64,000 nucleotides of DNA from an uncultured Alphaproteobacteria bacterium (GTDB lineage Bacteria > Pseudomonadota > Alphaproteobacteria > Rhizobiales > Xanthobacteraceae), in contig CAVYPJ010000001.1 in NCBI GenBank assembly GCA_963770385.1, positions 1,168,750 to 1,232,749 on the forward strand. Direction: 5' to 3'. Position 1 is the first letter of the stretch, and every line of letters begins with the position of its first letter. The position numbers and the translations under genes are program-made. Below the pieces are notes generated by a model. It ran no database searches. It was given only the letters and a program-made list of their open reading frames with translations, and had not been told where the DNA came from. Shown piece by piece: positions 56,293 to 63,631 of this stretch.

Positions 56293-56363
56293 TTTGCCTG
56301 GACACGGCAATTTGAGCCCGAATTCCAGAAAAGACCGGCATGCTAAGCTTTGGGGAAGAGCAG

Positions 56364-57095
56364 ATGATGTCGAATGCGACCCTGGACTCCCTGATACGGC
56401 GGCTGCGGACGACGTCAGCGATTGATGATGAGGATGTCGAGGTGATCGGCACGCTGCCGATGGACCTCAGGACTCTTGGGCCCAACCAGCACGTCGTCCG
56501 GGACGGGGAGAGGTCCACCGCGTGCTGCCTGCTGGCAGAGGGATTCTGCGTCCGCTCGAAGAGCACGTGGGAAGGGCGGCGGCAGATCCTGTCCATCCAC
56601 ATCCCCGGAGAAATCCCGGACCTGCAGAGCCTTTATCTGCATGTGATGGATCATGACCTTGTGACGCTGACGGAATCTCGTGTCGGCTACATCCCGCACA
56701 CGGCGCTACAGGACATGGTTCGCCAGAGGCCCAATGTCGCGGCGGTGCTATGGCGGGACACTCTGATCGACGCGGCAATGTTCCGCGAATGGATCGTCAA
56801 TGTCGGCCAGCGGCCGGCGACCAGCCGGCTCGCGCATATCGTGGTCGAGCTGCGGGCGCGCCTGAAGGTCATTGGCCGCAGCGATGGCAGCCGCATCGAG
56901 ATGCCGCTGACGCAGGAGCAGATCGGCGAAGCGATGGGGATCACTCCGATCCACGCCAATCGGATTATCAAGCAATTGCGCGAGGAGGGCGTGCTCGAAT
57001 TTCACCGCGGTCATGTAACGGTGCTGGACGAGGGCAAGCTGGAGGAACTCGCCCACTTCGACGACCGTTATCTTCATTTGAAACCTTCGCTTTAG
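56364..57095 (+). CDS. Crp/Fnr family transcriptional regulator
   Basis: GRRQILSIHIPGEIPDL, PLTQEQIGEAMGITPIHANR HTH. Confidence 0.92.
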   Translation: MMSNATLDSLIRRLRTTSAIDDEDVEVIGTLPMDLRTLGPNQHVVRDGERSTACCLLAEGFCVRSKSTWEGRRQILSIHIPGEIPDLQSLYLHVMDHDLVTLTESRVGYIPHTALQDMVRQRPNVAAVLWRDTLIDAAMFREWIVNVGQRPATSRLAHIVVELRARLKVIGRSDGSRIEMPLTQEQIGEAMGITPIHANRIIKQLREEGVLEFHRGHVTVLDEGKLEELAHFDDRYLHLKPSL

Positions 57096-57103
57096 GGGGA
57101 CAA

Positions 57104-57331
57104 ATGCCGCGGTATCATTTTCACATCCGGGAAAACGGCCGCCTCATTCGCGACGAGGAGGGACAGGAGTTTCCAGACAAAGACGCTGTCCGAAGAGAGG
57201 CGGTGGAAACGGGCGCTTCCATCGCACGAGATGTCTTCATGAACGGAAGCGCGAGGCTTGTCGTGGTCGATGTGCACGAGGAGAACCGGACCTGCCTGAA
57301 AGTCTCGATCTCCCTCTGTGTTGAAGAATGA
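57104..57331 (+). CDS. DUF6894 family small protein
   Basis: MPRYHFHI..DEEGQEFPD. Confidence 0.75.
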   Translation: MPRYHFHIRENGRLIRDEEGQEFPDKDAVRREAVETGASIARDVFMNGSARLVVVDVHEENRTCLKVSISLCVEE

Positions 57332-57367
57332 TGACGCACGGCGGCGCAAATGCCGCGTGGGACATTA

Positions 57368-57392
57368 GGAACCATCCTCACGAAGCCGTGTT
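57368..57392 (+). promoter_or_regulatory. EcfG-like promoter GGAAC-N16-TGTT upstream of the DUF892 gene
   Basis: Near-consensus match. Confidence 0.6.
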
Positions 57393-57426
57393 GCTTTCCG
57401 CACAACACCAACCAGCGGAGCCACTC

Positions 57427-57916
57427 ATGGCAGAGAAAGACCTCAACGATTTGTTTCTCGATACTCTGAAGGACATCTATTACGCCGAGAAGCAAATCTA
57501 CAAATCATTGCCGAAGATGGCGAAGGCCGCGAATTCAGATCAGCTTCGCCAAGCCTTCGAGAAACATCACCAGGAGACCGAAGGCCAGATCGAACGGCTG
57601 GAGCAGATCTTCGAGCTGATCGACAAGCCCGCGCGCGGCAAGAAGTGCGATGCGATCGAGGGCATTCTGGACGAAGGCAAGGAGATCATGGACGAATACA
57701 AGGGCGCTCCGGCGCTCGATGCGGGTCTGCTCGCCGCGGCCCAGGCGGTCGAGCACTACGAGATTTCCCGCTATGGCACACTCAAGGCGTGGGCAACAAA
57801 GCTCGGCAACAAGGAGGCCGTCAAACTGCTCGACGCGAACTCTGTCCGAGGAGAAGAAGACCGACGAAACGCTGACCAGGATCGCCATGAGCGCCGTCAA
57901 CGCCGAGGCGGCCTGA
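57427..57916 (+). pseudogene. yciF: Ferritin-like DUF892 (YciF-like) stress protein with a +1 frameshift near 57840
   Basis: LKDIYYAEKQ, AQAVEHYEISRYGTL; removing one A in GCGAACTCTG restores TLSEEKKTDETL. Confidence 0.85.
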
Positions 57917-58016
57917 TCGACGCTTGCGGCATCGTTACAAAATGTCGGATGCTCCCGGGGTCATCTCAGGAGCATCCGATAATCGAGCCGGGTGTTATGA
58001 AGGCGCTGAGGCGATA

Positions 58017-59507
58017 TCAGCTGGGAATGCCGGGAGTGGTGCCGCGTCCAAGCGCGAACTGACCGACCGGACCTTCGACGTGAAACTCAAGCCCTGTCAT
58101 CCTGGCGAACAGGTCAATATTGCTCGTCCCGACGGCGCATCCGCCGAGGTCCATGTCCGTGGCAGTCAGATACAGCGTCTGCAGTAGCACGCCGACGTCG
58201 CGAAGGATCAGCGAGTAGGCGATCGCGCTGTATTTCCAGGCGATCCGGTCGAAACGAGCTGCAATCGTGATCAGAATCTGAGGCGGCCCGGGAGCGTCCA
58301 TGGCGAATGCAGCGGCGCCGATCAAGGCCTCCAGCTCCTGCGCGCGTACCTCGATCGGCACGAGTGCATGGCGGTCGGCGTCGTAATGATAGAAGCCCGG
58401 CGTGAGGCCATCGCATCGGGCGACCGCGAGATAAAGCTCGAGCTCATAGGCGCTACCGGCCGAGGGATAGGGCCGAGTCGTGTAGTCGATCTCGGGACCG
58501 AACGTGCCATCGCCGAAGTCGAGCGGGTTGATCCATTTCGATCGTACGCGCGCTGCGCAATCGAGGAATTGCGCAAGCTCGGCTAGCGTGATCGGATTCT
58601 GGTCGTCGAATTCCCGGATCGAGTGGCGCTCGCCCAGCAGCTCCGCAAAAGGTGACATCAGCTCGTTCGTCGCGTCCGTGAACGGCTGCAGATCGATCGT
58701 CGTGCCCGGCCACGCCGGCCGGACAGCCGAGGGCGGCGGGATCAGGTCGACATAGGGGTAACGCCCGCCAATCGGATTGGCCTGCCGCCCCTCGGTACTT
58801 TGGACGTGAAACAGCAGATCATGGAAATCCCATACCACGAGTGGGGCGCCGCCTTCGCTTGGACGCAGACCCTCATCGCCAACGGTTTCGATCTTGAACA
58901 GGATCTGGCAATCCAGCAGCAGCGCAAGCAGTTCCTCGCCCGGACCACCCTGCTGCCGCAGCTTGCCAACCCTGTGCGGAGACGACAGCGTGACGAGCGC
59001 AGATGCGATCTTCGGATCCGCGATGCGAAACAGCGCCGCGGCGCGCGGCGATTCCAGCACCATCTCGTTGCCGCGCCGGCGCATATAGGCGAAGCGCGAC
59101 AAAACGACCGTATCGGTCGCGCGGAGCTTTTGTATCTTCGGCCAATAGTCGGCGGACTGCGGTTCGACGACGACGAGGTCCTGATCGCCGCGTGCACGGG
59201 AGAGGCGATATTCGACGAGGCCTCGTCGCGCGAGTTGCCGCACCACGAGATCAATCTCGCGGTCGACCGAGCTTCCATCCACGGAGAACGAATGGAGCGG
59301 GAGGCCGCTTCGAAGATCACGCGCCCGCTTGATCGCGCCCGTGCTGAATTTACCCAGTTCGACCGCGTAGCCGTCGAAGTCGGCCGCAAGACTGCCGTCC
59401 GGCCGCGCTTGAATAGTGAAGTGCTCGTTCAACCTGACGGAGAGAACGGGCGGGGTCGTCTTTCGCCGTTTCTTGGGCGAAGGTTTCTTGGATTGAAGCG
59501 CGGGCAC
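58017..59507 (-). CDS. SagB/ThcOx-type FMN-dependent azoline oxidase with N-terminal extension
   Basis: RHSIREF, RPYPSAGSAYELELY, WKYSAIAYSL..DVGVLLQTLYL; directly downstream of the YcaO gene. Confidence 0.92.
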   Translation of the reverse strand: MPALQSKKPSPKKRRKTTPPVLSVRLNEHFTIQARPDGSLAADFDGYAVELGKFSTGAIKRARDLRSGLPLHSFSVDGSSVDREIDLVVRQLARRGLVEYRLSRARGDQDLVVVEPQSADYWPKIQKLRATDTVVLSRFAYMRRRGNEMVLESPRAAALFRIADPKIASALVTLSSPHRVGKLRQQGGPGEELLALLLDCQILFKIETVGDEGLRPSEGGAPLVVWDFHDLLFHVQSTEGRQANPIGGRYPYVDLIPPPSAVRPAWPGTTIDLQPFTDATNELMSPFAELLGERHSIREFDDQNPITLAELAQFLDCAARVRSKWINPLDFGDGTFGPEIDYTTRPYPSAGSAYELELYLAVARCDGLTPGFYHYDADRHALVPIEVRAQELEALIGAAAFAMDAPGPPQILITIAARFDRIAWKYSAIAYSLILRDVGVLLQTLYLTATDMDLGGCAVGTSNIDLFARMTGLEFHVEGPVGQFALGRGTTPGIPS

Positions 59508-59522
59508 GCTTGCTTGTCCCGC

Positions 59523-61856
59523 TCAGGTGTGGGGCAGGAACGGCGTCAGCTCTTCCTCCGGCAACGAGCGCTCCAGAAGGCCGAGCTTGACCGGCACGTC
59601 GTAGAGGCGGCCCGGCCCGAAGCGCTTGTAGAAATGCCGCATGCCCGGAACGAGCACCCTGACCACGGGCACCTCGACATCGGGCCGCGTCTGGTCGAGG
59701 ACCAGAAAATCCATGCCGGCGCGACTTGCGATGTCGACACAGGCCTGCACCTGGTCGCGGGTGTTGTCGTGGACCGAGAGACCCACTGCCGGCGGCAGCA
59801 CCGGGTTCGCGGCGGGCAGCAGGAACGGATAGTTATCGAGGTTCAACGGCGTCACGCCATCGAGCGTGGGCTTCTCGCCACTTGCGCCACCCATCATGCC
59901 GATCGCCAGGAATTGGCTGAGCTCCGTCAGCGCGCGCAACAATGCGATCCGCCGGTCGAAATGCGAACCGGAGCCGAACTCGATGTTCTCCTGGCCGTCC
60001 TGCATCCAGTGCATGATTGCCACATAAGTGGGAATGCCGATATCGCTGGTGATGTCGAGTACCCAGATCTTCCGGCCAGCCTCGGCGAATTGCGACTTGA
60101 TATCGCGCACATAGGAATCGTCGAACTGGTCGAGATCGAGCTCGGCGCGCTGCGAGCGATTGTACCACCAGATCGCATAAGCATCGCGTTCGACAAGCTC
60201 AAGGAAGCCTTGAACGATCGCTTCTTCGCGCGTGTTGCCTGCCGCGCAGCCGTTGGAGTCGGTGTGGAAGCCGCGATAGAAGAAGTAGAGCAGCCCGGTC
60301 GGGAAATATTGGAAACGCTTGTCGCGCAGCGACCATGCCGGCGACCACTCGGTCTTCTCGGAAGGGTCGAACGGATGTGGCACCTGGTGCGCGCCATCGG
60401 GCTGTGGAATGTGCCTGGTGTCGTATTGCGACTGGCTGAAGAGCTGGACGTCGTTGGGCAGCATCGCTTCGCCGAGCTCGAAATCCGTGAAGCGTTTTGT
60501 GATCCGGATCTCGTCGCCCTGGAAGATTCCGGAGTAGCGCTCGATTGCCTCCATCAGCGCGCTGGCCTCGGCCTGCTCGGGGGTCGAGCCCTTGCCATAG
60601 CTGCCGCCGCTCAGGCCTGAGCGGAGCTGATCGACGCTGTGCGCCGGCGCGGAGAAATTATGCTGGGCGTAGAAGTTCGTGTTCATCGGCAGATCGGCCT
60701 CAATCCGCTCGAGTTGAGTGACCACACCGGTGAGGGGGCTGACATGCTTGCGGAAGCGCGACACGGTCGTACGTGACGACACCGTGCGATAGCCGCCGCT
60801 GGTCATGATCAGCTTGTTGCCTTCGGCAAGCTCGACCGGCCGTGGCCTGCGGCGCGGATTGTAGAGCTTCTTGCTGCCGCAGGTCGGGCATTGCGGGCGC
60901 CTCGCGACATAATGCTTGGCGATGTTCGCGCCCATCATGTCGAAGCTCGCGATATGATTATTTAGGTCGGTGCGAAAACCCGATGCAATTGCCTTTGCGA
61001 TCTCGACGGCGGCGAACTGGATGCCGCCCTGGCCGAGCATGTTGCGGACGAGCGGGGAGGTGGCGACCCGCTGCGCCGGCCCGCGCTCGAGGAAGCCTTT
61101 GATCTCGCGATTGCGGATCATGCGATCAAACAGGCAGGTCCAGCAAGCGGTCTCGCCCGGCTTGAGCACCGGTCCAACCAGAGGAAAGACGCCCGACGGT
61201 TGCACCAAGAGCCAAGGCGTCTTGTCTGCCACGCGCTGCTGGTTCAATTCGGCCAGACGCCGCTCCAGATAATCATTTGCCAGTGTGATAGTGAGATCCG
61301 GCGAGCGCGGCACGATGCGAACGCCGAGTTCGGCCAGGGCAGCCGTGAGCTCCTTGGCGCCAGCCACGTCGATCGCTTCAACGCGCACCTTGCACTCGCT
61401 GAGATTCTTCTCGGCGATCTCAGGCGGCAATCCGAGGCTTGCCCAGTAGCCTGCAACCGTCCCGTCGGCGCCATAGGAAGCTTGTGTGACGTAGCGCCGT
61501 TCGAGCAACCGTTTCAGCGCCTCCTCGATCTTGTCAGCGGGGAATTGCGGCTGCAGGTCGCGAAGAAGATCCTTTGCACTCTTGCCGCCTTTGGCGATCG
61601 CCGATACCAGCGTGCAATAGAGTTCGCCGTGCAGGAAGAATTTCCGGTCCTCCGAATAGAGGCACACGACATCGGGCGGCAGAACATAAGCGGTAAAATT
61701 CGGCGTGAATTGCAGGGCGTCCTTGCTGGCCGCCCGCTTGGCGACGGTCTTCTTGGAGGTGGTCCGCTTCGAGGCAGTCTCCTTCGAGGCAGCCTTCTTC
61801 GAGGCAGTCTTGCGTTGAGCCGTCTTGCGATGAACCTTCATCGTCTTCGCACGCAC
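59523..61856 (-). CDS. Fused azole cyclodehydratase (RRE / E1-like C domain / YcaO D domain)
   Basis: GETACWTCL and RRPQCPTCG; SALMEAIERYSG; SNGCAAGNTREEAIVQGFLELVERDA; Pro-rich C-terminus LTPFLPHT. Confidence 0.94.
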   Translation of the reverse strand: MRAKTMKVHRKTAQRKTASKKAASKETASKRTTSKKTVAKRAASKDALQFTPNFTAYVLPPDVVCLYSEDRKFFLHGELYCTLVSAIAKGGKSAKDLLRDLQPQFPADKIEEALKRLLERRYVTQASYGADGTVAGYWASLGLPPEIAEKNLSECKVRVEAIDVAGAKELTAALAELGVRIVPRSPDLTITLANDYLERRLAELNQQRVADKTPWLLVQPSGVFPLVGPVLKPGETACWTCLFDRMIRNREIKGFLERGPAQRVATSPLVRNMLGQGGIQFAAVEIAKAIASGFRTDLNNHIASFDMMGANIAKHYVARRPQCPTCGSKKLYNPRRRPRPVELAEGNKLIMTSGGYRTVSSRTTVSRFRKHVSPLTGVVTQLERIEADLPMNTNFYAQHNFSAPAHSVDQLRSGLSGGSYGKGSTPEQAEASALMEAIERYSGIFQGDEIRITKRFTDFELGEAMLPNDVQLFSQSQYDTRHIPQPDGAHQVPHPFDPSEKTEWSPAWSLRDKRFQYFPTGLLYFFYRGFHTDSNGCAAGNTREEAIVQGFLELVERDAYAIWWYNRSQRAELDLDQFDDSYVRDIKSQFAEAGRKIWVLDITSDIGIPTYVAIMHWMQDGQENIEFGSGSHFDRRIALLRALTELSQFLAIGMMGGASGEKPTLDGVTPLNLDNYPFLLPAANPVLPPAVGLSVHDNTRDQVQACVDIASRAGMDFLVLDQTRPDVEVPVVRVLVPGMRHFYKRFGPGRLYDVPVKLGLLERSLPEEELTPFLPHT

Positions 61857-62004
61857 GTTTCACCTATCGTTTTAGCGGGACCTGCGGCGCATGATGTCTC
61901 GGCCGCTGAAGCATCCAGTCCGCGCCCTAGCATTTTCTGCGAATTCTGGAAACCCTATGCCCTTGTCGAGAGAGGCAACGGCGGTGCCACAAAGGGGACA
62001 TGAA

Positions 62005-62036
62005 ATGGCCGGGTCGACTTGGTCGAACCCGGCCAT
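62005..62036 (-). terminator. Strong hairpin between the precursor and enzyme genes
   Basis: ATGGCCGGG-TTCGACCAAGTCGA-CCCGGCCAT followed by TTC; only a short U tract. Confidence 0.6.
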
Positions 62037-62077
62037 GACTTCGCACATTTTGAATGTCGTCAGGATTCGCTCCGCCG

Positions 62078-62473
62078 TCAGCAGACGCGGCAGGGTCCGC
62101 CCCACGAGATGCAGCAACCACCGCAACCACCGCAACCGACGCCACAACGGCAGGCGCGGCATCCGCGGCATCCACCGCAGCCCCGGCAGCCGCGGCAACC
62201 GCCACAGCCACGCCATGCAACCTGCACACCGTTGCCAGCATTTTCCTTGTCGAACAAATGGAATGTCGCCAAGCTCACATCGGCGATTTCTTCTTCACCG
62301 AGCGTCACCGCCTGAGACGGCGAAAAGTTCAATTTCTGCGGAGTGTCCACGGCCGGTACGGCCGAAGCTGAAGCGCCGCCCGCCAGCGAAAAAGTCAGAC
62401 CTGCGGCACCTAAGGCCGGCATTGTGGCTTTCGCCACGCTCTTCCGCTTCGAAGCCTGCTTCACCCGTGACAT
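62078..62473 (-). CDS. RiPP precursor peptide, 131 aa, with a Cys/Gly/Arg-rich core
   Basis: AAGGAGGAG RBS; signal-like N-terminus; acidic LGEEEIADVSL leader; core with 14 Cys; first gene of the YcaO/SagB operon. Confidence 0.88.
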   Translation of the reverse strand: MSRVKQASKRKSVAKATMPALGAAGLTFSLAGGASASAVPAVDTPQKLNFSPSQAVTLGEEEIADVSLATFHLFDKENAGNGVQVAWRGCGGCRGCRGCGGCRGCRACRCGVGCGGCGGCCISWGGPCRVC

Positions 62474-62520
62474 TGTAGCTCCTCCTTACCTGTGGGAACG
62501 TTTCGATTCCAGCCGCTGCA

Positions 62521-62549
62521 ATATTACGCTTGGCGACCGTGCCGCGCAA
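62521..62549 (-). promoter_or_regulatory. Sigma70-like promoter TTGCGC-N17-TAATAT for the RiPP operon
   Basis: Correct 17-nt spacing, about 48 nt upstream of the precursor ATG. Confidence 0.5.
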
Positions 62550-62722
62550 GCAACTAACGCGTTGTTTCGTATTCAGTTTCTATTCATCTTGATGAATGAC
62601 ATTGATGTCATTTATGCGATGCTTCCGCAGGCGGATTTGCGTGTTGCGACTTCATCGCGCAAACAACTCGGCAGGTGCAATGCATCTGCGGCAGTGCAGT
62701 GCAAACGGATAGCGTAGTCGGC

Positions 62723-63631
62723 ATGGTCGATCGTCAGGGCTGCTTTGTCTGGTATGAGCTGTTGACCACTGACGTGGCGGCGGCGAAGGCGTTCTATCGC
62801 GACGTCATCGGTTGGGAGTCGCAAGATGCGACGACACCAGCGTTTACTTACAGTCTTTTTATGTCGTCGAGCGGTGCGGTCGCCGGATTGATGGATCTGC
62901 CCGAGGAAGGTCGGCGAATGGGAGCGACGCCGAGGTGGGTCGGCTATGTCGCTGTCGACGACATCGACGCGACCGCCGATCAGGTCAGAAAGCTTGGCGG
63001 TAGGATCTACGTTCCGCCGACGGACAGCAATATCGGTCGGCTTTCGATCGTTGCCGACGCGCAAGCCGCGGACTTCGCGCTCGTTGATGGATTGAAGCCG
63101 GAGCGCCGGGCCACCGCTCCGGATGCGCCGGGGCATGTTGGCTGGCACGAATTGCTGGCAGCGGATGGCGCAAGCGCGTTCGCGTTTTACGCCGAACTGT
63201 TCGGCTGGAAAAAAGCTGAAGCGGTGGGACCGAAGAGTGCAGTCGAGTCCTACCAACTGTTCGCCGCTGACGGTGTCACGATGGGAGGCATCTTCACCAA
63301 GTTCGCCCGCGAGCGGGTTCCGTTCTGGCTATACTACTTCAATGTCGCCGATGTCGCGCAAGCGGTTGCGCGGGTGAGGGCGGGCGGCGGCAAGGTCGTG
63401 CAAGGGCCGACGGAATTGCCGGACGGAAGTTGGATCGTCCGCTGTATCGATCCTCAGGATACGATGTTCGCGCTACAGGGCAAATCGAGCCAGCGTGGCG
63501 CCGAGCAGCCCGCGGCCGAGATCGGCTGGTCCACAAAGTGGGGGGACTTCGCCTCACGCGGCAGAATGATTGTCCGGCCGGAGGCCAAGCCGAACACAAG
63601 CCCGAACACAAAGCCGAAGCCGCAGCGCTGA
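62723..63631 (+). CDS. Two-domain VOC (glyoxalase/bleomycin-resistance-like) protein
   Basis: FVWYEL..AKAFYRDVIGW and VGWHEL..AFAFYAELFGW repeats; divergent from the precursor. Confidence 0.88.
   Translation: MVDRQGCFVWYELLTTDVAAAKAFYRDVIGWESQDATTPAFTYSLFMSSSGAVAGLMDLPEEGRRMGATPRWVGYVAVDDIDATADQVRKLGGRIYVPPTDSNIGRLSIVADAQAADFALVDGLKPERRATAPDAPGHVGWHELLAADGASAFAFYAELFGWKKAEAVGPKSAVESYQLFAADGVTMGGIFTKFARERVPFWLYYFNVADVAQAVARVRAGGGKVVQGPTELPDGSWIVRCIDPQDTMFALQGKSSQRGAEQPAAEIGWSTKWGDFASRGRMIVRPEAKPNTSPNTKPKPQR

What the first reader, a model, noticed from the sequence alone, without database searches (positions are those of the whole stretch)
58017..62549. Minimal three-gene azole RiPP cluster with a distinctive Cys-periodic precursor
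Seen in sequence: one minus-strand operon of a precursor (62078-62473), a 777-aa fused E1-like/YcaO cyclodehydratase and a 496-aa SagB/ThcOx oxidase, with its own promoter and RBS. Established: fused YcaO plus an FMN oxidase converts Cys/Ser/Thr to thiazoles/oxazoles. The SNGCAAGNTxEEAI-GF-ELVERD motif, the Pro-rich tail and the long oxidase resemble the cyanobactin heterocyclase/ThcOx pair more than the separate B/C/D enzymes of the rhizobial LAP phazolicin. Inference: an uncharacterised polythiazole product class. I recognise no known compound with this core.
Basis: partly seen in the sequence, partly recalled or inferred. Interest (0 to 1): 0.92.

Follow-up and report, generated by a model that had tools for sequence, protein, structure and literature searches.

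The report
Exported polythiazole peptide cluster in Bradyrhizobium
This is a real gene cluster, with four conserved genes rather than three, that most likely turns the cysteines of a Gly/Cys/Arg-rich peptide into thiazole rings and sends it out of the cytoplasm through the general secretion pathway; it is common in Bradyrhizobium and its relatives, and its product has never been studied.

Summary
On the minus strand lie:
- a 131-aa precursor (62078-62473) with a strong RBS;
- a 777-aa fused heterocyclase, a full-length homologue of cyanobactin LynD/TruD;
- a 496-aa ThcOx-type oxidase.

The interpretation needs three corrections.

1. The unit is not a minimal three-gene cluster. A two-domain VOC (glyoxalase-fold, Rv0577/AbxF-like) gene at 62723-63631 is gained and lost with the enzymes. 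It is present in 79 of 82 genomes with the heterocyclase and 0 of 69 without. It stays adjacent even where its position changes. The genome also holds two orphan precursor paralogues.
2. The precursor starts with a conserved Sec-type signal peptide (basic n-region, h-region, A-S-A). No protease, exporter or other gene is conserved nearby. Sec export is therefore the likely route, which is unusual for a YcaO peptide.
3. The family is not unseen. Cox et al. 2015 listed a truncated member under "cyanobactin" in a supplement. I found no characterisation.

The precursor family is large (924 clusters at 50% identity). In my samples it is confined to one alphaproteobacterial family: about 55% of Bradyrhizobium species and 14 of 62 genera.

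Verdict: a new variant of a known kind (linear azole peptide). Its role is unknown.

The parts
62723..63631 (+). Two-domain VOC (glyoxalase/bleomycin-resistance fold) gene, divergent from the precursor. It is the fourth conserved gene of the module. The conserved start is M17 of the 62675 ORF.
   Evidence: Pfam Glyoxalase x2 and Ble-like_N. PDB Rv0577 by sequence, E 1e-30. AF2 model pLDDT 83.5; the best folds are Rv0577 and then AbxF. Adjacent in 78/80 loci and in 14/16 cluster loci of other genera, in two different positions. Present in 79/82 YcaO-positive and 0/69 other genomes.
62582..62597 (.). Palindrome ATTCATCAAGATGAAT (TTCAT-N4-ATGAA) midway between the VOC and precursor genes. Candidate site for an unknown regulator; the 5-4-5 layout resembles Crp/FNR-family sites.
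   Evidence: Conserved in the Bradyrhizobium upstream regions printed, with some variants, and in one sister genus (L098). The same motif lies about 115 bp upstream of the orphan precursor on C3. Only 3 of 12 genomic copies are intergenic. It is not conserved in distant genera.
62521..62550 (-). Sigma-70-type promoter of the precursor operon: -35 CTTGCG (62545-62550), 18-nt spacer, -10 TAATAT (62521-62526).
   Evidence: Phylogenetic footprint across 79 upstream regions. The same layout occurs before the orphan precursor. The generic consensus scan did not find it.
62481..62487 (-). Ribosome-binding site AAGGAGG, 7 nt upstream of the ATG. It fixes Met1, not Met18, as the start.
   Evidence: Sequence. 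GGAGG is conserved at the same distance in orthologues.
62078..62473 (-). Precursor peptide gene, 131 aa.
   Evidence: ORF. About 5,980 homologues with E<=0.01. 924 clusters at 50% identity found with the leader alone. The AF2 model has no confident fold (pLDDT 43), as expected for a peptide substrate.
62360..62473 (-). Residues 1-38: Sec-type signal peptide. n-region net charge +6, h-region TMPALGAAGLTFSLAGG, then A34-S35-A36-S37-A38.
   Evidence: Family profile of 152 intact members: A34 0.95, S35 0.90, A36 0.97, with a basic n-region and conservative hydrophobic changes in the h-region. Hydropathy. One source names a homologue 'conserved exported hypothetical protein'. SignalP was not available.
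62240..62302 (-). Residues 58-78, LGEEEIADVSLATFHLFDKEN: the most conserved stretch of the family. Inferred recognition sequence for the RRE/winged-helix domain of the heterocyclase.
   Evidence: E62, D65, L68, T70 and F71 are invariant in 152 members. The heterocyclase aligns with LynD from its residue 5, including the leader-binding domain 1. Binding is an inference.
62081..62212 (-). Residues 88-131: core RGCGGCRGCRGCGGCRGCRACRCGVGCGGCGGCCISWGGPCRVC. It has 14 Cys, 7 Arg and no acidic residue.
   Evidence: Family cores are G 35%, C 30%, R 14%. Cys is preceded by Gly in about two thirds of cases. C-x-x-C spacing dominates. 138/152 members end in CCxxWGxCxxC. The DNA is a 9-bp tandem repeat.
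62005..62036 (-). GC-rich hairpin about 40 nt after the precursor stop codon. Inferred partial terminator or mRNA-stabilising stem that sets the precursor-to-enzyme ratio.
   Evidence: Fold. A hairpin is present at the same place in 74/76 distinct orthologous sequences. 5 of 11 pairs show compensatory changes. The U-tract in this genome is weak.
59523..61856 (-). Fused winged-helix/E1-like/YcaO heterocyclase (PatD/LynD type) with an extra Lys-rich N-terminal tail of about 45 residues.
   Evidence: The alignment to LynD shows conservation of the CEAxERYSG motif, the DSNGxAAGNTxEEAIxQGFxELVERD motif, the CWxC...CPxCG cysteines and the C-terminal VPGMRHF...GRLYDVPVKLG block.
58017..59507 (-). ThcOx/SagB-type FMN azoline oxidase. 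Its start lies 16 nt after the YcaO stop.
   Evidence: It aligns with CyaGox/ThcOx over residues 116-489, including the WKY (Lys-Tyr) motif.

Best explanation
This is a four-gene module for a ribosomally made, azole-modified peptide. The four genes are VOC, precursor, heterocyclase and oxidase.

Proposed sequence of events:
1. The precursor operon is transcribed from its own promoter. A hairpin after the precursor gene probably gives more precursor message than enzyme message.
2. In the cytoplasm, the LynD-type heterocyclase docks on the conserved LGEEEIADVSLATFHLFDKEN segment through its N-terminal winged-helix (RRE) domain.
3. Using ATP, it cyclodehydrates Cys residues of the Gly/Cys/Arg core to thiazolines.
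4. The ThcOx-type FMN oxidase aromatises them to thiazoles. The limit is 14 rings, a loss of about 280 Da.
5. The N-terminal 36-38 residues are a moderately hydrophobic Sec signal peptide, and no protease or transporter belongs to the module. The modified peptide is therefore most likely exported after translation through SecYEG and cut by signal peptidase I. That releases a cationic polythiazole peptide of about 9.4-9.6 kDa, still carrying the acidic leader remainder, into the periplasm.
6. Two orphan precursor genes in the same genome share the leader and are probably substrates of the same enzymes. One also shares the promoter and the palindrome.
7. The cytoplasmic VOC protein is an obligatory partner of unknown role: a tailoring enzyme, or a binder or protector of the peptide.

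Shown: gene content, homology, conservation, co-occurrence and the signal-peptide features.
Inferred: the chemistry, the order of steps, Sec export and the processing.

Physiological role: undetermined. Sec alone delivers only to the periplasm of a diderm cell. On that basis I weakly favour a role in the producer's own periplasm or envelope (about 0.4) over an extracellular antibiotic (about 0.3).
For: Enzyme identity:
-. The heterocyclase is a full-length LynD/TruD homologue with the catalytic motifs. The oxidase is a ThcOx homologue with the Lys-Tyr motif.

Substrate assignment:
- Precursor, heterocyclase and oxidase were all found, in that order, in 78/80 loci.
- The leader and the orthologous YcaO co-occur in 82/84 leader-positive genomes. 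No orthologous YcaO lacks a leader.
- The leader is highly conserved, and the core is Cys-rich with Gly before Cys.
- No confident fold is predicted.

Sec route:
- Conserved n/h/AxA architecture.
- RBS at Met1.
- Clustering of all flanking ORFs in 18 loci from 14 genera finds no conserved family other than the four genes.
- No PatA/PatG protease anywhere in the genome.

VOC linkage.

Orphan precursors and the shared promoter and palindrome.

Hairpin.
Against: - No expression or chemical data.
- The signal peptide was judged by rules and conservation, not by a trained predictor. Its G22, G25 and P19 are far more conserved than is usual for signal peptides, so it may have another or an additional role.
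- A peptide with many thiazoles passing SecYEG has no precedent for YcaO products. The only precedent I found is the MNIO-modified bufferins (PMC12452194).
- No metal-, stress- or envelope-related gene is conserved next to the module, so a periplasmic role has no support from context.
- How many of the Cys residues are modified is unknown.
- The Fisher tests ignore shared ancestry.
Confidence: 0.6

Rival explanations
1. The product is an extracellular antibacterial peptide of the microcin B17 or phazolicin kind, used against competing soil bacteria. The VOC protein would then be the producer's immunity factor and sequester the peptide in the cytoplasm. Release from the periplasm would use a general route encoded elsewhere, such as vesicles, TolC systems or lysis.
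For: - Patchy presence: 54 of 103 high-quality genomes of the genus. Clusters have decayed repeatedly (G039, G057, G067, G144).
- Up to seven precursor paralogues per genome, with variable core length driven by 9-bp repeats.
- A duplicated VOC+precursor pair without enzymes in G107 looks like a toxin-immunity pair.
- The core is cationic, Gly-rich and azole-rich, like known azole antibiotics (my own knowledge).
- Pfam Ble-like_N hit on the VOC.
Against: - No exporter, outer-membrane component or uptake-related gene is conserved.
- The cores are compositionally uniform, with a near-invariant C-terminal motif across genera, not hypervariable.
- The best structural neighbours of the VOC are Rv0577 and the enzyme AbxF, not bleomycin-binding proteins.
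- Most orphan precursors have no VOC of their own.
Confidence: 0.25
2. The N-terminal hydrophobic segment is not a cleaved Sec signal. It would be part of a long leader or a membrane anchor that holds the precursor at the membrane for the two enzymes, both of which carry basic N-termini. The mature peptide would be released by a protease and transporter encoded elsewhere.
For: - Unusually strong sequence conservation of the h-region (G22 0.99, G25 1.00, P19 0.95).
- Lys-rich N-terminal tails on the heterocyclase and the oxidase.
- Cox et al. 2015 annotated the precursor without this segment.
Against: - The A-S-A motif is conserved at 0.95/0.90/0.97, directly after the h-region.
- No partner protease or transporter co-varies with the module in 18 loci from 14 genera.
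- The RBS places the start at Met1.
Confidence: 0.12
3. The Cys-rich ORF is an independent secreted metallothionein-like protein, and the heterocyclase and oxidase act on another substrate.
For: The C-x-x-C periodicity and the signal peptide would suit a periplasmic metal-binding protein.
Against: - Near-perfect co-occurrence and fixed adjacency with the enzymes.
- A conserved acidic leader segment of the kind bound by LynD-type RRE domains.
- No other candidate precursor is conserved in the loci.
- Gly before Cys is the context favoured for cyclodehydration (my own knowledge).
Confidence: 0.03

Closest known systems
Cyanobactin heterocyclase/oxidase pair (PatD/TruD/LynD with ThcOx/CyaGox)
   Same: Both enzymes share architecture and are homologous over their full length: LynD E 3e-147 and CyaGox E 9e-54. 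The leader has an acidic recognition segment. The inferred chemistry is Cys to thiazoline to thiazole.
   Different: There are no PatA/PatG proteases in the cluster or the genome and no PatE-type precursor model hit. The core is 44 aa with 14 Cys rather than 6-8-residue cassettes. There are no macrocyclisation signals. The precursor has a signal peptide. A VOC partner is present.
Microcin B17 and other linear azol(in)e-containing peptides (LAP/TOMM), including rhizobial phazolicin
   Same: A linear Gly/Cys-rich core with a YcaO, an E1-like domain and an FMN dehydrogenase. Among defined classes this is the one it fits.
   Different: Microcin B17 uses separate McbB, McbC and McbD proteins, an ABC exporter McbEF and the immunity protein McbG (my own knowledge). 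Here the heterocyclase is fused and of cyanobactin type, no exporter is present, the leader is a Sec-type signal, there is almost no Ser/Thr, and the core is rich in Arg.
Bufferins and oxazolins (MNIO-modified, Cys-derived heterocycles; copper-binding periplasmic RiPPs)
   Same: The precursors carry Sec signal peptides, which that literature describes as highly unusual for RiPPs. Cys residues are turned into heterocycles. The clusters are small, without protease or exporter. Several copies can occur per genome (PMC12452194).
   Different: The enzyme family is entirely different: MNIO plus a DUF2063 partner versus YcaO plus a flavin oxidase. Neither an MNIO nor a DUF2063 domain is present here. 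No link to copper was found.
Heterocycloanthracin/sonorensin precursors (TIGR03601)
   Same: A core of repeated Cys-Xaa-Xaa units processed by a TOMM enzyme set (my own knowledge). This is the only model that touches the precursor at all (E 0.14).
   Different: The score of 12.8 bits is far below the cut-off of 35. The leader is different, the family is Gram-positive, and there is no signal peptide.
Rv0577/KbpA and AbxF (two-domain VOC proteins)
   Same: They are the closest relatives of the fourth gene by sequence and by fold.
   Different: One is a kinase-binding protein and the other a polyketide spiroketal-forming enzyme. Neither is known with RiPPs. Here the canonical beta-1 His position is Trp in both halves (FxWYEL, GWHEL), so it is open whether the protein binds a metal.

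Membership tests
Linear azol(in)e-containing peptides (LAP/TOMM) | YcaO cyclodehydratase with intact ATP/Mg motifs | tested here: met
   TIGR03604 227 bits (cut-off 219), PF02624 312 bits. Motifs are conserved in the LynD alignment.
Linear azol(in)e-containing peptides (LAP/TOMM) | E1-like/RRE partner (C protein), separate or fused | tested here: met
   Fused: PF21084 residues 49-124 and TIGR03882 residues 213-379.
Linear azol(in)e-containing peptides (LAP/TOMM) | FMN-dependent SagB-type dehydrogenase | tested here: met
   TIGR03605 178 bits, PF22767, and the WKY motif aligned with CyaGox.
Linear azol(in)e-containing peptides (LAP/TOMM) | Adjacent precursor with a Cys/Ser/Thr-rich core that co-varies with the enzymes | tested here: met
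Linear azol(in)e-containing peptides (LAP/TOMM) | Azol(in)e rings in the mature product | not testable with these tools
   Needs mass spectrometry.
Cyanobactins | PatA/PatG-type subtilisin proteases (N-terminal cleavage and macrocyclisation) | tested here: not met
   TIGR03895 finds nothing in the whole genome. No conserved protease in 18 loci.
Cyanobactins | PatE-type precursor with recognition sequences | tested here: not met
   No NCBIfam or Pfam hit for the precursor. The leader family is found only in one alphaproteobacterial family.
Cyanobactins | PatD-type fused heterocyclase, with or without a ThcOx oxidase | tested here: met
Heterocycloanthracin/sonorensin | Precursor matches TIGR03601 above the cut-off | tested here: not met
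   12.8 bits against a cut-off of 35.
Bufferins (MNIO RiPPs) | MNIO (DUF692) enzyme and DUF2063 partner | tested here: not met
   Neither domain is in any of the four genes.
Bufferins (MNIO RiPPs) | Sec signal peptide on the precursor | tested here: inconclusive
   The n/h/AxA features are conserved. There was no trained predictor and no experiment.

The most novel reading that the evidence does not exclude
This family would be the first YcaO-dependent counterpart of the bufferins. The leader would double as a Sec signal peptide, so the polythiazole peptide is delivered to the producer's own periplasm and acts there, for example in metal or redox buffering or in binding anionic envelope polymers, rather than as an antibiotic. 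A VOC-fold protein would be a new kind of obligatory RiPP partner.
Probability: 0.3. Interest if true: 0.8.

Novelty: new variant of a known kind. Interest (0 to 1): 0.6.

Why it matters
Bradyrhizobium is among the most abundant soil genera and is the main soybean symbiont. About half of its sampled species carry this module, yet the product is unknown.

If the Sec route is confirmed, it would extend signal-peptide leaders from MNIO peptides to YcaO peptides. That would change how genome miners look for precursors: the 2015 survey cut the signal peptide off.

The VOC partner and the orphan precursors give direct genetic handles.

The system is small (four genes, no exporter needed), so it is easy to reconstitute.

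Tried and rejected
- Generic promoter scan: it found nothing near the precursor. I replaced it with phylogenetic footprinting.
- Regulator: the TTCAT-N4-ATGAA palindrome could not be assigned to a known regulator.
  - It has only 3 intergenic copies in the genome.
  - It is not conserved in distant genera.
  - The nearby Crp/FNR gene (56340-57095) is kept only in the closest relative.
- yciF/DUF892, Crp, glgX and opgC as cluster members: rejected.
  - yciF, Crp and glgX are each found in at most 2 of 80 loci.
  - opgC is found in only 41 of 80.
- Cyanobactin membership: rejected.
- The second YcaO of the genome is a TfuA-type thioamidation pair and is unrelated.
- A second LynD-like YcaO in G102 (54% identity) lies next to a carbamoyltransferase. 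It has no oxidase and no recognisable precursor, so it did not help.
- LynD-like enzymes in 6 of 400 other alphaproteobacteria (33-43% identity) showed no similar precursors in the short flanks fetched.
- AF2 of the precursor gave only a disordered model.
- Fold search of the VOC could not separate an enzyme role from a binder role.
- Literature: ten searches found no characterisation.
- A YcaO tree with PatD/PhzD was not built, because named outgroup sequences could not be fetched with the remaining caps.

Full report
**Observation**

The 777-aa protein carries a winged-helix domain (PF21084, 49-124), the TOMM leader-binding E1-like domain (TIGR03882, 213-379) and a YcaO domain (TIGR03604 and PF02624, 421-772).

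The 496-aa protein carries the ThcOx domain (PF22767, 134-242) and a SagB-type nitroreductase domain (TIGR03605, 307-488).

A strong RBS (AAGGAGG, 62481-62487) precedes Met1 of the precursor. G+C content is that of the genome, so nothing suggests a recent import.

**Enzymes**

Against solved structures, the large protein aligns from residue 46 to 772 with the cyanobactin heterocyclases:
- LynD, E 3e-147
- TruD, E 4e-143
- MusD, E 9e-137

The next best YcaO proteins score about 60 bits.

The LynD alignment keeps several blocks:
- the CEAxERYSG block;
- the DSNGxAAGNTxEEAIxQGFxELVERD block;
- the CWxC...CPxCG cysteines;
- the C-terminal VPGMRHF...GRLYDVPVKLG block.

The oxidase aligns over residues 116-489 with CyaGox/ThcOx (E 9e-54), including the Lys-Tyr (WKY) motif. 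McbC of microcin B17 scores only E 3e-4.

**Precursor**

No Pfam or NCBIfam model covers it. The only touch is a compositional, sub-threshold one to heterocycloanthracin (TIGR03601, E 0.14).

It is nevertheless a large family:
- about 5,980 homologues with E<=0.01 among 90%-identity clusters;
- with the leader alone (residues 1-87), 924 clusters at 50% identity with E<1e-3 and 314 with E<1e-10.

All named members are Bradyrhizobium "hypothetical" proteins. One is named "conserved exported hypothetical protein".

In 152 intact members the peptide has four parts.
1. Residues 1-38 have the three-part form of a Sec signal peptide.
   - The n-region has net charge +6.
   - The h-region has mean Kyte-Doolittle hydropathy of about 1.05.
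   - A34-S35-A36 is conserved at 0.95, 0.90 and 0.97.
2. A variable spacer follows.
3. LGEEEIADVSLATFHLFDKEN is the best conserved stretch. E62, D65, L68, T70 and F71 are invariant.
4. The core is G 35%, C 30% and R 14%, with almost no Ser/Thr and no acidic residues.
   - The median is 14 Cys.
   - C-x-x-C spacing dominates.
   - Gly precedes Cys in about two thirds of cases.
   - 138 of 152 members end in CCxxWGxCxxC.

The core DNA is a 9-bp tandem repeat, which explains the length variation.

AlphaFold gives no confident fold (pLDDT 43), as expected for a peptide substrate.

**Link between precursor and enzymes**

Precursor, heterocyclase and oxidase were all found, in that order, in 78 of 80 loci from other species.

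In an even sample of 151 genomes of the genus:
- 84 have the leader;
- 82 have an orthologous heterocyclase;
- the overlap is 82.

The Fisher test gives p about 3e-41, but it does not correct for shared ancestry.

The window's genome has only this one azole-type YcaO. The other YcaO is a TfuA partner.

The genome has three precursor genes: the clustered one and two orphans.
- The first orphan is a 176-aa protein with a longer core, on contig C3. It shares the promoter layout and an upstream palindrome with the clustered gene.
- The second is a 127-aa divergent form on C1.

Other genomes hold up to seven copies.

**A fourth gene**

The divergent gene at 62723-63631 encodes a two-domain VOC-fold protein. 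Four observations tie it to the module.
1. It is adjacent in 78 of 80 loci.
2. In other genera it is still adjacent in 14 of 16 cluster loci, but in two arrangements: upstream and divergent in 4, downstream of the oxidase and convergent in 10. The flanking genes differ throughout.
3. In the genus sample an orthologue is present in 79 of 82 genomes with the heterocyclase and in none of the other 69.
4. In one genome a second VOC copy sits divergently beside an orphan precursor, with no enzymes nearby.

Clustering all flanking ORFs from 18 loci of 14 genera finds no further conserved family. There is no protease, transporter or regulator.

The unit is therefore four genes, not a minimal three.

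The VOC protein models well (pLDDT 83.5). Its closest relatives are Rv0577 and then AbxF, a polyketide-tailoring enzyme. NCBIfam gives a sub-threshold hit to the kinase-binding KbpA.

The usual beta-1 His position is Trp in both halves.

Whether it is an enzyme or a binder cannot be decided here.

**Transcription signals**

The generic scan missed the promoter.

Seventy-nine aligned upstream regions show a conserved -35 CTTGC and a -10 GCGTAGRAT-like element. In the window these are at 62545-62550 and 62521-62526.

A palindrome TTCAT-N4-ATGAA (62582-62597) lies midway between the VOC and precursor genes.

A GC-rich hairpin (62005-62036) lies about 40 nt after the precursor stop. It is present in 74 of 76 distinct orthologous sequences, and 5 of its 11 pairs show compensatory changes.

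A partial terminator after the structural gene is a common RiPP arrangement. That function is an inference here.

**Distribution**

- The module is in about 55% of sampled species of the genus (54 of 103 high-quality genomes).
- Several copies have decayed, with in-frame stops in the heterocyclase of G039, G057, G067 and G144.
- At family level, 45 of 301 genomes and 14 of 62 genera have the leader.
- None of 400 other alphaproteobacterial genomes (308 genera) has it.
- Six of those 400 carry LynD-like enzymes at 33-43% identity.
- Record titles name Bradyrhizobium species, one Pseudolabrys and soil MAGs.

**Literature**

Cox et al. 2015 (PMC4603692) filed the Bradyrhizobium YcaO proteins under "Cyanobactin" in a supplementary table.

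For strain STM 3843 they listed a precursor beginning MPAADAPK... and ending CCISWGACRLC. That is this family, started at an internal Met after the signal peptide.

Genome announcements mention a TOMM cluster found by antiSMASH.

I found no paper that characterises the product, and none that describes a YcaO peptide with a Sec signal. A 2025 survey of MNIO enzymes calls Sec signal peptides "highly unusual" for RiPP precursors (PMC12452194).

Earlier notes of this scan report signal-like leaders on YcaO precursors in CPR bacteria. These are unchecked leads and I did not test them.

**Mechanism**

The best-supported reading has these steps:
- The heterocyclase recognises the acidic LGEEE...FDKEN segment.
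- It cyclodehydrates the core Cys residues.
- The oxidase converts the thiazolines to thiazoles.
- The peptide is exported after translation by Sec and cleaved after A36 or A38.
- A cationic polythiazole peptide ends up in the periplasm.

The moderate hydrophobicity of the h-region fits post-translational rather than SRP-dependent targeting. This is an inference.

The role is open. Sec alone stops at the periplasm, which weakly favours a function in the producer's own envelope. The patchy distribution, the many paralogues and the VOC+precursor pair fit an antagonistic peptide with an immunity protein.

I give 0.6 to the biosynthesis-plus-Sec model as a whole. The enzyme-substrate assignment alone is about 0.85.

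**Classification**

The module meets every testable criterion of a linear azol(in)e peptide cluster.

It works like the cyanobactin heterocyclase/oxidase step but is not a cyanobactin:
- no PatA/PatG protease exists in the genome;
- the precursor is unrelated to PatE.

It resembles the bufferins in export logic only.

I therefore rate it a new variant of a known kind. It has been catalogued but not characterised.

**Limits**

There are no expression data, no trained signal-peptide predictor, no chemistry and no phylogenetically corrected statistics.

Noticed in passing
L002 1366-1896 (-) = G000 C3:1178290-1178820; L003 1414-1797 (-) = G000 C1, about 936.3 kb: Two orphan precursor paralogues in the same genome. 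One is 176 aa with a longer Gly/Cys/Phe core, next to a cupin gene. The other is 127 aa with a short GCGCSFGC core followed by a Pro/Lys/His-rich tail, next to a DUF4331 gene.
   Followed up: partly
P0254 (90%-identity cluster of 70 members), P0202, P0250, P0215, P0267; L003: A subfamily shares the signal peptide and leader. It has only a short Cys core (for example RLACGCGGGCCLFA) followed by a long basic, Pro/His-rich C-terminal extension. It recurs in several genomes (three copies in G107), so it may be a real variant rather than a decayed gene.
   Followed up: no
window 62582-62597; G000 C3:1178935; G000 C3:3515905: The TTCAT-N4-ATGAA palindrome has only three intergenic copies in the genome. 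Two lie upstream of precursor genes. The third lies between a galE-like epimerase gene and a sugar-transferase gene.
   Followed up: partly
window 61722-61856 (heterocyclase residues 1-45) and 59430-59507 (oxidase N-terminus): Both enzymes begin with Lys/Arg-rich, low-complexity tails. The heterocyclase tail hits the histone-H1-like Hc2 model (E 4e-5). LynD lacks such a tail. Orthologues have shorter versions.
   Followed up: partly
L005 698-2685 (G000 C3, about 2.676 Mb): The only other YcaO in the genome sits next to a TfuA gene, so it is a thioamide-type pair unrelated to this cluster.
   Followed up: yes
L106, about 165 bp upstream of the precursor ATG: In one distant genus the precursor is preceded by a perfect FixK/FNR-type box, TTGATCTAGATCAA, in place of the Bradyrhizobium palindrome. 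This fits control by a Crp/FNR-family regulator.
   Followed up: no
G039, G057, G067, G144; G066, G067, G039: Several genomes carry decayed clusters, with 2-3 in-frame stops in the heterocyclase and split precursor or VOC genes.
   Followed up: no
L118 6357-8609: A second LynD-like heterocyclase (54% identity) in genome G102 follows a NodU/CmcH-type carbamoyltransferase. It lacks an oxidase and has no obvious precursor.
   Followed up: partly
L077 (record CALRXG020000084.1): A MAG labelled Bordetella parapertussis carries a Bradyrhizobium-type cluster with the same flanks (73% identity). The label or the bin is probably wrong.
   Followed up: no
window 57328-58062 (+) and 58017-59507 (-): The DUF892/YciF-like ORF as called overlaps the 3' end of the oxidase gene by 46 bp. 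Its long N- and C-terminal extensions suggest that the real gene is shorter.
   Followed up: no
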